The position numbers are program-made. A DNA stretch of 64,000 nt, from positions 1-64,000 of the forward strand of contig NW_026926363.1 of assembly GCF_032062105.1 (NCBI RefSeq). Reading direction: 5' to 3'. Below are positions 1 through 21,000 of the stretch, one piece after another; position 1 is the stretch's first letter; each line of letters begins with the position of its first letter. This stretch comes from Saccostrea cucullata (Eukaryota).

Positions 1-3000
1 ACAAAGTATGAGACAAGAAATATCGCACATTGTAAACATGACAACGCAATTAACATTTCACATTTATCACACTTTCCCCCGCTTGGACTACATTTCGTCC
101 TCGAAATGTGAACAAAAACATATATAAAAAATCTATCTCATGTTATGTGACAGCTAGACTCTAGCTCATTGTAGGATAAAAAAGTATTTTTATTTTTTTT
201 TAAAAAATCTACATTCGTAGTGTACAAACATCATAAACTACAATAAAAAAAAAATCCTCACACATAGTCATAGTGGATATGTAGCTTATTTACTTCATTT
301 CATCTTTTACCTTTTCAACCCAGCTGGGTGTTTCAGCGCACACAAACGGCTTAAGTCTGTCATGATGTATGACCTCTGTTTTATGTTTATTTCTTATTTT
401 GTAGACCACTGGACCAAATTTTTCCGTTATCAGATAGGGGCCGGCCCATGGGGATTCAAATTTCTTGTGATTTGGTTTCAATTTATACACAAGGCTTCCA
501 ACGGGCATGGTATTCTCACTGATGCGAGTGTCATCGTCTCTCTTTTGCCTCTCTGCTTGACTTTGTAAATTTTTCCGGGCTACATGATAAAGTTGCTCCA
601 TCTTCTCTCTCAGGTTTTCAGCATACTGGTCGGCGGTGTTTTTGTCATGGTCATTAGGCAAGGGATATAGGATACTGATCGGAGTATTGACCTCCCTACC
701 AAACATTAGCATGTTTGGGGAATATCCAGTACTTGGATGAGGTGTGCTTCTGTATGCTGCCATCAGAATGCTGAGATATTTATCCCATTCATGAATGTTA
801 GTTTCGATAAAGCTTTTTATCATCTTCCCTAAAGTTTGATTGAACCTTTCAATCAGGCCATTAGAACTGGGTCTGTATGGGGTTGATCTAGTCTTTTTGA
901 TTTGGAGAAGGGAACAGACTTCTTTAAACAGATCACTCTCGAAATTAGATCCTTGATCCGTATGGATTTCCAATGGAGTTCCATAGCGTACAATAAATTC
1001 ATGTACTAATTTTGAGGCAACAGTTTCTGCATTTTGGTTTGGAATAGGGTAAGTTTCCATCCATCTCGTGAAGTGGTCCCCTATAACGAGTATGAATTTG
1101 TTCTGTTTTTTCGATCTGGGTAAAGGTCCTATCACATCTATGCCTATCCTATCAAAGGGATAGCCAACACGATAATCGCATAATTTTGCCCTTGGGGTCT
1201 TGTTGAGTTTCTTCCATCTACTGCAAGCTGGACATTGTCTGACATGGCTTTTTATGTCCTCTCCCATCCTGTACCAGTAGAAATAGTTCTGTACTTTCTG
1301 AATTGTTTTATTTACACCTTGGTGGGCGGAGAATAGGTCATCATGGCACATTTGAAGGATACTTTGCCTTAGCACTCTTGGAACTAAGAGTTGTTGAACC
1401 TCTCTTTGATCTGTAACAACTAATTTTCTGTAAAGAATTCCTTCCTGCGCAGTAATAGATCTCCAGGTTAGCCAAAAGTTCCGAACAGCTGGGCTAAATT
1501 GAGATACTTCATCCCGAGATGGTAGTTTCTTTTGTTCTAACCACTGATGAAGAATCTTTAGATCTGAATCTTGTTTCTGAAAGTCTATCATTTCTGTTGG
1601 TGTAAATTGCTGCATCCAGTTGCACGTTTGGTTCAGATTGATAACTCTTGTACTGAGAGGATTTCCATTTTTGCTGAGGTCAGTCACATTATCAATGTTT
1701 TCCTTGAAGTCCTGCCATTGTTCATTCGAGTTTTCACATTCCATACACTGTGGTTCTGTGTCATCATGAGAGCATTTTTCTGGAAGTCGAGACAACGAAT
1801 CTGCATTCAGGTGTTTCTTGCCTTCTCGATGTTCTATTTTAAAGTGATACTGTGATAAAACCTCCAACCAGCGAGCTAATTGTCCTTGGGGGTCCTTAAA
1901 GTTGAAAATCCATCTCAAAGAACTATGGTCAGTTCTCAGGAGAAACTTCCTTCCAAGTAAATAATGTCGAAACTGGTTGATGAAGGTAACCACTGCTAGT
2001 AACTCTCGTCGTGTTACATTATAGCGTTTTTGATGTTTATCGAGTTTCTTTGAGGCATATGCTATAACTTTTTCTTTGCCTTCTTTCATTTGCGACAGTA
2101 CTGCTCCAATCCCATTATCCGAAGCATCTGTGTCTAATACAAAAGTTTCCGTAGAAGATGGGTATGATAATACTGGAGCATCACATAATGCTGCTTTCAG
2201 AGTATGGAAGGCTTCTTCACATTCTGGCGACCAAATGAATTTCTTGTCCTTCTGTGTCAAGCTGCTGAGTGGTGCTGCTATATCACTGAATTTGTATATG
2301 AACTGTCGGTAATAATTGCAGAGTCCAAGAAACTGTTGTATTTGTTTCACATTTTGTGGAATCTTCCAATTTTTAATGGATTCCGTAATCTTGGGGTTTG
2401 GTTTAATGCCCTCTTTCCCGACAATATGTCCTAGGTATAGTACTTCTGACTGGAAAAGTTCGCACTTCGAAGGTTTTAGTTTAAGACCTGCAGCTTGGAG
2501 TCTTTGAAGAACCTCATTCAACTGTTTAAAATGATCTTCCATATTCTGGCTAAAGATAATGATGTCATCCAGATATATCAATAGATGTTTCCACTGCATT
2601 CCTCTGAAGATTAATTCCATGCATCTTTGGAAAGTACTTGGTGCTGAACATAGACCAAAAGGCATCTTTGTATATTCAAAGAGTCCGTATTTCGTGATAA
2701 AAGCTGATTTTTCTCTGTCTTTTTCCTCCAGGACAATCTGCCAATATCCACTTTGTAGGTCCATTGTAGAAAAGATTGAGGCACCTGCTAGACAATCTAG
2801 ACACATGTCAATACGTGGTAGAGGATAGGCATCTTTACGGGTGCAGTCATTGAGTTTTCTGTAGTCAATGCACCAGCGGACTGTTCCATCTTTTTTGCGA
2901 ACTAATACCACTGGTGAGGCCCAAGCAGATTTGGAAGGTTTAATAATTCCATTACGTAGCTGTTCTTTTAAATAGGTTTCTTCCTCTGCCTCAAATCCTT

Positions 3001-18000: not shown

Positions 18001-21000
18001 CTTGGAAGGATTCACCAGCCATCTTCTTGATTTGCTGAAGTTCTCTTCTATGCGTTTCCGGTAGTGTATGGTCACCAAATCTCCTGTTCATCGATTCAAT
18101 TAGATACAACCATTCTGATCGGACTTCATGAGAAAGTTGTGTTACGAAGGTTAGAGCTTCGTCCTTCAAGCAGAAGATGATTTCTTCCCTCCTCCTCTCA
18201 ATTGTCCATTTATATCTGTCTGCCAGCATCTCAAACTGCAGCAGGAAAGACTTCCAGTCTCCCTTCCCATTAAATATTGGGAGTCTTGGTTTTGGTTCCT
18301 CGCATCCACTCATGTTGGAGTTTGTACTTCCACTTTCATTGGGAATAGGCCAGCTAGGCTGAGGATAAGTACTCCAACCTGGACGATTATTTGTGGTTTG
18401 AGGGGTCCATCGCATTTGATGATTTCCCTGGTTTGGTTGGATTACATTTGATGGATATGTAGCATTTTGGGCATAACCACTGTGTCCTTGAGAATATCCA
18501 CTATAGCCTTGAGGATGAGTGTAACGACCTAGATTGGGATACAAACCATTCTGACTTGACTGTTTACTGCTGGCTATCTTCAATGCTTCCTCCAATTCTC
18601 CTATTTTGCGTCTCAGACTCTCTACCTCACCTTGATTTTCATTCCTGCATTCTTCATTGTCAATGCCCATCATGCTTGGAATCCTCCTTGGGCTGTGCAC
18701 TGGGGAACACACATTTTCCACCACAGAAGATGATTGAACACCTTGATTCACAAACTCTACATCCCTATTTTCCCCCACTTTAAAACTAGGAGAACCTAAT
18801 TTTCTATTTCTTAACATCATTTTCCTAAGTGAATTTTTTCAAACAATACTTTTTTTTTTTTTTTTCAAAAAACAATAAAATAAATACAAAAAATTATTTA
18901 AATTTAAATTTTTAACCGCTGCCACCAATTATTGCGTTTGCTGAATTTGTTATTTAAATTCAAAAACGTTATAAAAGACACACATATTATATCAATTAAT
19001 ATGAACTATTTATTTAGAACATAAAATATGAAATATAATATTTTCAGGTTTAAATTTAGATATTTTCCTTTAAAAAAATATTGAACAATGTAATAAAAAT
19101 CCCTATTCACTATAACATTCGTTAAAAATCCTTTCTATAATATTACAATATCATTTAAGTACTTAAAAACTAATAAAAAATACCTTTCAACAATAATAGA
19201 TTGTCACCCTTAACGGCTGCCGTATCTCTATCTAGCACCAGACCCCGTATGTTATACAAACGTATCTAGGTAACTAGGTCATAGCAATACCTACATATTT
19301 ACAATGCACAACTTGTATCATTAAAACAGTAATAAAAATACGATACTATTTTATTTATTTTAAATACATAAAATTACTACAAGTAAACAGTACTCGAGTC
19401 AAAGTACAGAATAAATACGAAATTCTTTATACAAATCATGTTCGATCGGGATCGGGATTGCAGTATGAAAACATGTGATTTCCCGGTAAAGTCAAAACAT
19501 CTTTCTTCACAGTTTTGGATACAAGTTGTAGTTTTCCACAATAATAGACGTAATCTAATAGACGTAATCATATGAATAGAGGTAATTAAGTATGTAAAAA
19601 TGAATATGATTAACATCGAAATTAATAAATATAATATGCATTTATACAGTAATCATGCATCAATACCAGTTCGAATTTCCTCGACATGTCACAACAAAGT
19701 ATGAGACAAGAAATATCGCACATTGTAAACATGACAACGCAATTAACATTTCACATTTATCACAGCCTGTTATATAGAAAAGTCCTCAGGTAGAGTAATT
19801 TTTTTTTTCAAATCATGACCACGGGGGTAAGGTAGGGCATTGACTGTCTGATCAAAGTTTTACAAGGAATCGTCTCCTCAAGATCAGAAATCAATTGGTA
19901 ATAGTAGTAATAGGCGCCTAGCTAGGAGGGTCAACTGAGTGCACTTTTTATGCAAATGGTCAGAAAGGCTGGATTCTGATTGGTTTAGCCACTTAGGGGG
20001 GATAGGCGGGTCAACTGAGTGCACTTGTAGCCCTGGGGGCTAGGCGGGTCAATTAAGTACAGCCCCAGGGTGGGGCTAGGTGGGTCAATTTCGTACAAGC
20101 CTTGGGGGGCTAGGTGGGTCAAGGCAGTAAAGCCCCTGGGTGGGGCTAGGGAGATCAACTACAAGTGTGGGGGGACTCCTCCTATAAACACTTAGACTTA
20201 AGGGGGCCGACTATAGTTTCCATTTCGCAATATTTCGCGCATCATAGTAAAATGAAGCGTATTTACTGTTTTAATGCAACTTTTTTCACTTGATTATTAA
20301 AATTAAACAAAATTAAGAAATTATAGGTATAAAAATGTAATTACAATTTGATATAACTAATTCTTTAACCGATTTTACATTTGATAGGTAGGTTGACGTC
20401 GTTGCAGTGTTTTTTTGACGTTATGATAATCTGTCGCTCTTAAAGAAAAGGGTAATAAAAAAATTATTTTAAAAAAAGTAATAAGCACACGCTCTTGAAA
20501 TTTAAAACATAGAAATTTGAGAATATCTCCAATATTTTTATTATGTTTTCATGTGAATCCATTGTATACATCATATTTTGTAATACTCTATAAAAATAGT
20601 AAAATTTGCTAATTTTTTTGCATTTTGAGATGCCCCTCTGGTAACAAGACGGTAGAATTTTGTGTTTCTTACATATATTGTATAATACAGTATTACTCAT
20701 CAAATATTATAGTTTGAACAAAATGTCTATTATAGTACAGTGGACCTTCAGATATCCGGACGCCAGATATCCGGATGCTTCAGTATCCGGACGATTTTTC
20801 ATCGGAACGAAATTCTAAAATGTAAGTCTGTCTTGTTTAACTGGTGATTCAGATATCCAGATGCTTCACATATCCGGACAAATTGACTGGGAACCAAAGC
20901 GTCCGGATAAATGAGGGTCCACTGTATTTGTATAATTTGCTTTAAAGTGCTAAAAATTGGCATTTTTCTATATAATCCTATTGTAAGTGTACCTGTATTT

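What the first reader, a model, noticed from the sequence alone, without database searches (positions are those of the whole stretch)
1..19764. Head-to-tail concatemer of intact Gypsy elements joined by single shared LTRs
Seen: at least three full units with exactly one LTR and no TSD or spacer between them, and all gag/pol ORFs intact. The copies differ at a few sites I could spot (8472, 16622-16623, 16953, 17573, 18983) and in homopolymer length (T17/T18/T16). Inference: ordinary integrase insertion does not give this structure. It points to very recent LTR-LTR unequal recombination, or recombinational/rolling-circle incorporation of 1-LTR circles. Each internal LTR could act as both terminator and promoter.
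Basis: partly seen in the sequence, partly recalled or inferred. Interest (0 to 1): 0.68.

Follow-up and report, generated by a model that had tools for sequence, protein, structure and literature searches.

The report
Tandem Gypsy retrotransposons sharing single LTRs
Three almost identical, fully coding copies of a Ty3/Gypsy retrotransposon lie head to tail with one shared LTR at each junction, a real-looking but already well-described kind of structure, here probably in a bivalve genome.

Summary
Window 1-19764 is three head-to-tail units (period 6563-6565 nt, 99.89-99.95% identical) of one Ty3/Gypsy element on the minus strand. Each unit has an uninterrupted gag (477 aa) and pol (1307 aa; PR-RT-RNaseH-IN). 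Each junction holds a single LTR, with a polypurine tract on one side and no target-site copy or spacer. Positions 1-71 are the start of a fourth LTR, so the array runs off the left edge.

[quoted passage not shown] The same mechanisms have been proposed for them: LTR-LTR unequal exchange, cDNA or circle recombination, and complex single insertion.

The sequence alone cannot choose among these mechanisms. It also cannot exclude an assembly loop through a collapsed LTR, although six substitutions between the units argue for distinct copies. The host is probably a bivalve. I score this as a new member of a known kind, of modest interest. The LTR 3' boundary and the left end with its target-site duplication stay unresolved.

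The parts
1..19764 (-). Tandem array as far as the window shows it: LTR-internal-LTR-internal-LTR-internal-LTR(cut). It holds three complete units and is open at the left edge.
1..71 (-). First 71 nt (5' end, TGTGA...) of a fourth LTR, cut by the window edge
   Evidence: identical to 6566-6636 and 13131-13201
72..82 (-). Polypurine tract (GCGGGGGAAAG on the minus strand) of unit 1, abutting the LTR start. The same tract lies at 6637-6647 and 13202-13212.
290..4213 (-). pol ORF of unit 1 (1307 aa, uninterrupted)
4225..4267 (-). gag-pol -1 frameshift signal of unit 1: heptamer T_TTA_AAC (4261-4267) next to the gag stop, plus a downstream hairpin (4225-4255)
4258..5691 (-). gag ORF of unit 1 (477 aa, uninterrupted)
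5788..5799 (-). Candidate primer-binding site (TGG-initial 12-mer) of unit 1. The same 12-mer lies at 12353-12364 and 18916-18927. Inferred only.
   Evidence: 9 of 12 nt shared with the LTR-adjacent site of L001/L002
5800..6636 (-). Shared LTR between units 1 and 2. The 5' end at 6636 is firm. The 3' end is inferred; alternatives are 5961 or about 6192.
6854..10777 (-). pol ORF of unit 2 (1307 aa): PR 64-163, RT 438-598, RNase H 661-789, IN zinc domain 944-1002, IN core 1023-1115, IN C-terminal domain 1258-1289
10789..10831 (-). gag-pol -1 frameshift signal of unit 2 (heptamer 10825-10831, hairpin 10789-10819)
10822..12255 (-). gag ORF of unit 2 (477 aa; Retrotrans_gag 215-287, CCHC knuckle at 417-430)
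12365..13201 (-). Shared LTR between units 2 and 3 (3' end inferred)
13419..17342 (-). pol ORF of unit 3 (1307 aa, uninterrupted; carries 3 of the 5 substitutions private to unit 3)
17354..17396 (-). gag-pol -1 frameshift signal of unit 3
17387..18820 (-). gag ORF of unit 3 (477 aa, uninterrupted)
18928..19764 (-). Outermost (5') LTR of the array. Its terminus TG at 19764 abuts host flank (3' end inferred).
19765..19930 (+). Right flank: it starts part-way through a copy of the dispersed ~166-bp repeat family, so this is the insertion target
   Evidence: (aligned with 5 other copies from the window)

Best explanation
This is a genuine, very young tandem array of one autonomous Ty3/Gypsy (Metaviridae-type) LTR retrotransposon in a repeat-rich region of a probable bivalve genome. 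One element was inserted by its integrase into a copy of a ~166-bp dispersed repeat. Homologous exchange between its 5' and 3' LTRs on misaligned sister chromatids or homologues (unequal crossing-over) then made LTR-int-LTR-int-LTR. A further exchange added the third unit, and perhaps more to the left. Each internal LTR ends the unit upstream of it and starts the unit downstream of it. Hence each unit is a complete transcription unit, with gag, a -1 frameshift signal and pol. Shown: the structure, the coding state and the exact LTR terminus at the right junction. Inferred: the recombination route, the order of events and LTR function.
For: Three units have a period of 6563-6565 and 99.89-99.95% identity. 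There is one LTR per unit and no internal repeat. The junctions are PPT|LTR with no target copy. The right end falls exactly at the LTR terminus TG, next to a flank that continues a ~166-bp repeat from mid-unit, as an integrase-made end would. Six of 6 ORFs are uninterrupted, with PR-RT-RNaseH-IN order, DTG, YLDD, an integrase D..D..35E pattern and a CCHC knuckle. The best solved relative is Ty3 Gag-Pol, 7q5b, E 4.9e-128. The units differ by 6 substitutions (3 nonsynonymous, 2 synonymous, 1 non-coding). Five are private to unit 3 and one to unit 2, which fits two successive duplications and is not what repeated traversal of one copy would give. Published work names LTR-LTR ectopic exchange as the usual source of tandems with shared LTRs (passages of PMC5932611, Discussion of PMC11899658).
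Against: The left end, and so the second terminal LTR and the target-site duplication, lies outside the window, so a single original insertion is not shown. No reads are available, so an assembly loop is not excluded. The homopolymer differences (T17/18/16, A10/9/9) are of the kind consensus errors produce. The 5:1:0 split of private substitutions is not significant (my multinomial estimate is p about 0.05, or about 0.14 if the adjacent pair counts as one event). It would equally fit units copied from different templates. The authors of the rice study could not decide between recombination and complex insertion even with pangenome data.
Confidence: 0.5

Rival explanations
1. The array is real but was made during or right after reverse transcription. 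Possible routes are homologous recombination of cDNA or a 1-LTR circle with the LTR of a resident copy; one integration of a multimeric cDNA made by template switching between co-packaged RNAs; or a read-through multi-unit transcript.
For: These routes give the same junctions as unequal exchange. Ty5 cDNA recombination forming tandem elements is cited (reference title only; the paper is not held). Template switching giving LTR-int-LTR-int-LTR with flanking duplications is described (Results of PMC1950507). The route through 1-LTR circles and weak terminators is discussed. A preprint abstract proposes recombination before integration. Unit 3 carries 5 private substitutions, one an adjacent pair, which could reflect a different template or polymerase errors.
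Against: No feature in the window is specific to this route. Units 1 and 2 differ by a single substitution. Three or more units need repeated events or a long multimer.
Confidence: 0.22
2. It is an assembly artefact. There is one element (or two haplotype versions of it) whose identical LTRs collapsed into one graph node, and the assembler walked the loop LTR-internal-LTR several times.
For: An LTR element is a natural loop in an assembly graph. The array touches the window's left edge, which may be a contig end. Three of the 9 difference events are homopolymer-length changes typical of consensus noise. A difference of about 0.08% between unit 3 and the others could be allelic.
Against: All three units differ from one another by substitutions, whereas a diploid offers at most two versions. 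An element of about 7.4 kb is shorter than usual long reads. The right junction is clean. No N or gap occurs in the window.
Confidence: 0.22
3. Three independent insertions occurred side by side or nested (double insertion at one target).
For: Double insertion is a documented source of tandem elements.
Against: That route leaves LTR-LTR junctions with a retained target-site copy. Here each junction has exactly one LTR, flanked by PPT and internal sequence, and no extra bases.
Confidence: 0.02

Closest known systems
Tandem LTR-retrotransposon structures of plants (rice TLI1 and 266 pangenome tandems; Morales-Diaz et al. 2025, PMC11899658)
   Same: Internal regions alternate with single shared LTRs. 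Gypsy elements predominate, most structures are young, many lie far from genes, and the mechanism is left open between recombination and complex insertion.
   Different: The host here is an animal, probably a bivalve. The units are far more alike (99.9% against 94% for the TLI1 internal regions), and all ORFs are uninterrupted. The flanking duplication and spanning reads, shown for TLI1, could not be checked here.
Tandem LTR retrotransposons of Drosophila melanogaster (McGurk and Barbash 2018, PMC5932611, Fig. 1A)
   Same: Adjacent elements share an LTR, which is attributed to ectopic recombination between LTRs. The paper presents this as a frequent, ongoing first step from transposable element to satellite.
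   Different: Those tandems were inferred from read-pair junctions, mostly for LTRs shorter than about 330 nt. Here there is an assembled array of three or more units with an LTR of about 0.45-0.84 kb.
Ty5 tandem elements in yeast (Ke and Voytas 1997)
   Same: The LTR mediates the formation of tandem elements that share LTRs.
   Different: That case was shown experimentally to arise by cDNA recombination. I saw only the reference title, because the paper is not held.
Complex elements by template switching (Sabot and Schulman 2007, PMC1950507)
   Same: The LTR-int-LTR-int-LTR form, with each LTR able to drive its downstream unit.
   Different: Those cases are dimers of Copia elements in grasses, defined by flanking duplications and similar outer LTRs. 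Neither feature is testable here.
Ty3 of Saccharomyces cerevisiae (solved structures 7q5b, 4ol8)
   Same: It is the best solved relative of pol (E 4.9e-128 and 4.1e-100), with the same domain order.
   Different: It is a distant relative only. The gag protein has no match among solved structures (0 hits at E up to 0.01).

Membership tests
Ty3/Gypsy (Metaviridae-type) LTR retrotransposon | pol domain order protease - reverse transcriptase - RNase H - integrase | tested here: met
   Pfam: PR 64-163, RVT_1 438-598, RNase H 661-789, Integrase_H2C2 944-1002, rve 1023-1115, Integrase_p58_C 1258-1289. Ty3 is the best solved relative.
Ty3/Gypsy (Metaviridae-type) LTR retrotransposon | gag with capsid-like domain and CCHC zinc knuckle | tested here: met
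   Retrotrans_gag, E 9.3e-07, above the cut-off. zf-CCHC scores 17.8 bits, below the cut-off of 20.8, but the C..C....H....C pattern is present at residues 417-430.
Ty3/Gypsy (Metaviridae-type) LTR retrotransposon | LTRs with TG...CA ends; PPT before the 3' LTR and PBS after the 5' LTR | tested here: inconclusive
   The 5' TG end and the adjacent purine tract are clear at 3 of 3 internal junctions. The LTR 3' end is not defined by any repeat within a tandem array. There are three candidates. The TGG-initial 12-mer gets mild support from L001/L002. No tRNA was available to test it.
Ty3/Gypsy (Metaviridae-type) LTR retrotransposon | Short target-site duplication flanking the insertion | not testable with these tools
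   The left end lies outside the window. Only the right flank, GCCTG..., is seen.
Tandem LTR-retrotransposon array with shared LTRs | Internal regions alternate with exactly one LTR; no target copy or spacer in the junctions | tested here: met
Tandem LTR-retrotransposon array with shared LTRs | The array starts and ends with an LTR and is flanked by one target-site duplication | tested here: inconclusive
   The right end is an exact LTR terminus. The left end is beyond the window.
Tandem LTR-retrotransposon array with shared LTRs | The structure is present in single molecules (spanning reads), not only in the assembly | not testable with these tools
   No reads are available. The rice study used 4 spanning reads for this.
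Tandem by double insertion at one target (McGurk and Barbash Fig. 1C) | End-to-end junction of two complete elements with a retained copy of the target site | tested here: not met
   Each junction holds a single LTR and no extra bases.
Transposable-element-derived satellite DNA | A long array of many units | tested here: inconclusive
   Three units plus 71 nt are seen. The array is open at window position 1.

The most novel reading that the evidence does not exclude
The array is not a by-product of meiotic or mitotic unequal exchange. It would instead be the integrated trace of multimeric replication of the element: a read-through or circle-templated multi-unit copy put in at one stroke. It would also continue well beyond the window as a nascent satellite made of fully coding units. 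That would be an animal example, in a bivalve, of a route that is still only hypothesised for plants.
Probability: 0.12. Interest if true: 0.55.

Novelty: new member of a known kind. Interest (0 to 1): 0.3.

Why it matters
If real, the locus packs three or more complete, nearly identical copies of a coding retrotransposon into 20 kb. Such arrays are hot spots for copy-number change, for loss as circles or solo LTRs, and for the first steps from transposable element to satellite DNA. My one targeted search returned 980 papers holding at least 4 of the 6 terms. None of the 20 listed titles and abstract openings reports a tandem LTR array in molluscs, and no listed paper holds the phrase 'shared LTR'. 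A confirmed case would therefore extend a pattern documented in yeast, flies, plants and marsupials. It is also a practical warning for annotation, because LTR-pair finders would call overlapping elements here. It does not change how these elements are understood.

Tried and rejected
- LTR 3' boundary. No second copy or fragment of the element exists in 19765-64000 (blastn and tblastx found nothing), so no independent LTR copy fixes the end.
- Candidate LTR ends: a TGG-initial 12-mer at 5788-5799; a 9-of-12 terminal inverted match ending at 5961; and a perfect 12-nt inverted pair, 6390-6401 / 6180-6191, which could point to self-priming. None was proven.
- A full-text search for the 12-mer returned only unrelated primer lists (25 papers, 15 listed).
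- No tRNA gene was found in the window or in L001-L003. I had a leucine tRNA in mind for the candidate site, but that is recall and was not tested.
- Rfam: 0 matches at gathering scores.
- Host genes: 0 of 41 open frames of 85 aa or more in 19765-64000 match anything but mobile-element domains.
These have ordinary two-LTR structure.
- Independent or nested insertions were rejected on the junction sequences.
- An env-like third ORF was rejected: within a unit no ORF of 150 aa or more exists besides gag and pol, and the next longest is 94 aa.
- Ke and Voytas 1997 could not be read.
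Full report
**Observation**

The window has no N. Its first 19764 bases are a head-to-tail repeat. Self-identity peaks only at offsets 6563-6565, and the repeat finder reports three 100%-identical copies at those spacings. Pairwise global alignment of the three units gives these counts:
- Unit 1 vs unit 2: 1 substitution and 2 single-run indels.
- Unit 2 vs unit 3: 6 substitutions and 1 indel.
- Unit 1 vs unit 3: 5 substitutions and 2 indels.

Three 6.5-kb copies at 99.9% identity are far beyond chance.

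**Anatomy**

The element lies on the minus strand. Each unit has a 477-aa gag ORF and a 1307-aa pol ORF, and 6 of 6 ORFs have no internal stop.
- **pol:** Pfam places protease, reverse transcriptase, RNase H, the integrase zinc domain, the integrase core and an integrase C-terminal domain in that order. DTG, YLDD and a D..D..35E pattern are present.
- **gag:** it has a Retrotrans_gag domain and a CCHC knuckle.
- **Solved relatives:** the best for pol are Ty3 Gag-Pol (7q5b, E 4.9e-128) and Ty3 RT (4ol8). gag has none.
- **Frameshift signal:** pol is in the -1 frame relative to gag. The 17-nt overlap holds the heptamer T_TTA_AAC directly before the gag stop. A hairpin follows it (-25.1 kcal/mol, z -2.47, 3 of 200 shuffles fold as well). 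The heptamer-plus-stop and the core hairpin occur unchanged in all three units, and one search found no difference between units in that stretch. I treated the two frames separately throughout and joined nothing.
- **No third gene:** apart from gag and pol, a unit has no ORF of 150 aa or more, and the next longest is 94 aa.

**Junctions**

On the minus strand the LTR starts TGTGA. This start occurs four times, ending at 71, 6636, 13201 and 19764. At the three internal sites it is directly preceded by the purine tract GCGGGGGAAAG. At 19764 it abuts the flank GCCTG. A unit has no internal repeat, so there is exactly one LTR per unit, with no spacer and no target-site copy.

Positions 1-71 are the start of a fourth LTR. 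The window therefore shows LTR-int-LTR-int-LTR-int-LTR(cut), and the array may go on to the left.

The right flank aligns with other copies of a ~166-bp repeat family from about the middle of a repeat unit. The array therefore sits inside one such repeat, and the missing first part of that repeat is predicted to lie beyond the far end of the array.

**What stays unresolved in the anatomy**

In a tandem with shared LTRs nothing marks the LTR 3' end, and the rest of the window has no other copy. Three candidates exist:
- A TGG-initial 12-mer at 5788-5799, giving an LTR of about 837 nt.
- A 9-of-12 terminal inverted match ending at 5961, giving an LTR of 676 nt.
- A perfect 12-nt inverted pair that would fit a self-priming design, giving an LTR of about 445 nt.

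Two distant relatives fetched from genome contigs (L001 and L002, 37-38% pol identity) are ordinary two-LTR elements. Their LTR end is followed, within 0-3 nt, by an 18-mer that shares 9 of its first 12 nt with the window's 12-mer. That is mild support for the first candidate. No tRNA was available to test it. A text search for the 12-mer was useless. The LTR coordinates in the parts list use this inferred end.

**Differences between units**

Of the 6 substitutions, 5 are private to unit 3 and 1 to unit 2. Three are nonsynonymous (all in pol, two of them in adjacent bases), two are synonymous and one is non-coding. None interrupts a gene, so the count of breaks is zero in all six genes.

Divergence is about 1.5e-4 between units 1 and 2 and 7.6e-4 to 9.1e-4 for unit 3. 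If I assume 1e-9 to 1e-8 substitutions per site per year, which is not calibrated for this host, the splits date to roughly 1e4-1e5 and 4e4-4e5 years.

**Host and neighbourhood**

- **gag relatives:** one search gave 41 hits. Thirteen carry organism names and all 13 are bivalves (Mytilus 11, Argopecten 1, Pinctada 1). Three carry a name without an organism and 25 have none. The best identity is 72%.
- **pol relatives:** the best is 59% identical. Among the 120 listed of 1348 hits, 13 are organism-named: 6 fishes, 5 molluscs, 1 sea cucumber and 1 record labelled as a bacterial MAG.
- **Rest of the window:** it holds short arrays of 166-168-bp monomers. A paper on the Pacific oyster describes the same arrangement, short dispersed arrays of ~166-bp monomers, carried by non-autonomous Helentrons (passages). 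I made no sequence-level comparison with those.
- **Other domains:** the only protein domains found in 19765-64000 belong to mobile elements.

The host is thus probably a bivalve and the region is repeat-rich. Nothing looked human. No spliced gene model was needed, so no exon-wise or joined search arose.

**Mechanism**

One ordinary integration gives LTR-int-LTR, and a double insertion gives LTR-LTR junctions with a target copy. Neither fits this locus. Four routes remain:
- **(a) Unequal exchange between the LTRs of one inserted element.** This is the explanation given for most Drosophila tandems and one of two kept open for rice.
- **(b) Recombination of cDNA or a one-LTR circle with a resident LTR.** The Ty5 work is known to me only from a reference title. 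The circle route is discussed.
- **(c) One insertion of a multimer made by template switching or read-through**.
- **(d) An assembly loop through a collapsed LTR.**

The exact LTR terminus at the right junction fits (a), (b) and (c) alike. Substitutions that distinguish all three units speak against (d) but do not exclude it, and a third of the difference events are homopolymer changes. I rank (a) first at 0.5, (b) plus (c) at 0.22, (d) at 0.22 and independent insertions at 0.02.

That each internal LTR both ends one unit and starts the next follows from established LTR biology. Here it rests only on TATAAA (6518, 6303) and AATAAA (6231, 6227, 5886) motifs.

**Comparison and novelty**

The structure meets the defining feature of tandem LTR-retrotransposon arrays with shared LTRs. 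Such arrays are reported as common in Drosophila. They are also common in rice, Arabidopsis, almond and cotton, where Gypsy elements are over-represented. Kangaroo centromeres (cited) and yeast (reference title only) add further cases.

My one targeted search returned 980 papers holding at least 4 of the 6 terms. None of the 20 listed titles and abstract openings reports such an array in molluscs, and no listed paper holds the phrase 'shared LTR'. That is weak evidence of absence, and supplements were closed.

The verdict is a new member of a known kind. The locus is notable for three or more units, near-identity and complete coding capacity, and its interest is modest (0.3).

Noticed in passing
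window 24189-24638, 30262-31115, 41459-42491, 48880-49211, 49685-49850: Short arrays (2-6 units) of 166-168-bp monomers, with related non-repeat flanks recurring at 29945-30175, 41251-41481 and 52530-52685, about 11.3 kb apart. The layout matches what an oyster paper describes for Helentron-carried satellite-like repeats. I made no sequence comparison with those.
   Followed up: partly
window 23466-23954 (+) and 38262-38792 (+): Two open frames match different parts of the protein-primed type-B DNA polymerase family PF03175 (profile positions 7-99 and 366-390, E 1.1e-10 and 2.1e-08). They are probably remains of one or two Maverick/Polinton-like elements, 14 kb apart and interrupted.
   Followed up: partly
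window 55081-55788 (-) and 45102-45884 (-): A DUF7869 match (E 2.3e-07) and a weak reverse-transcriptase match below the Pfam cut-off (19.3 vs 29.6 bits). These are more mobile-element debris. No host gene was recognised anywhere in 19765-64000.
   Followed up: partly
window 33167-33397 vs 35753-35982, and 35027-35385 vs 36433-36812: Local duplicated blocks, 91-100% identical and 1.4-2.6 kb apart, with no inverted repeats. Their nature is unknown.
   Followed up: partly
window 20036-20150, 31946-32588, 44517-44582: Small tandem repeats: 36 bp x3.2, 317 bp x2 and 25 bp x2.6.
   Followed up: no
L001 8704-14084, L002 8752-14084, L003 10001-10977: Ty3/Gypsy elements sit in records titled as bacterial MAGs (Stappiaceae, Rubritalea). 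Two have ordinary LTR pairs of 268 and 284 nt at 99% identity. This is probably eukaryotic DNA binned with bacteria. L001 14.7-23.4 kb is a dense repeat field with 18-bp periodicity.
   Followed up: partly
window 6249-6488 (-), 12814-13053 (-): A 79-aa ATG-initiated ORF lies inside each shared LTR. It is probably chance and was not searched.
   Followed up: no
window 6390-6401 and 6180-6191 (and the same in the other LTRs): A perfect 12-nt inverted pair lies inside the LTR region. I expected about 0.04 such pairs by chance, my rough estimate. It could mark a self-priming design or be coincidence.
   Followed up: partly
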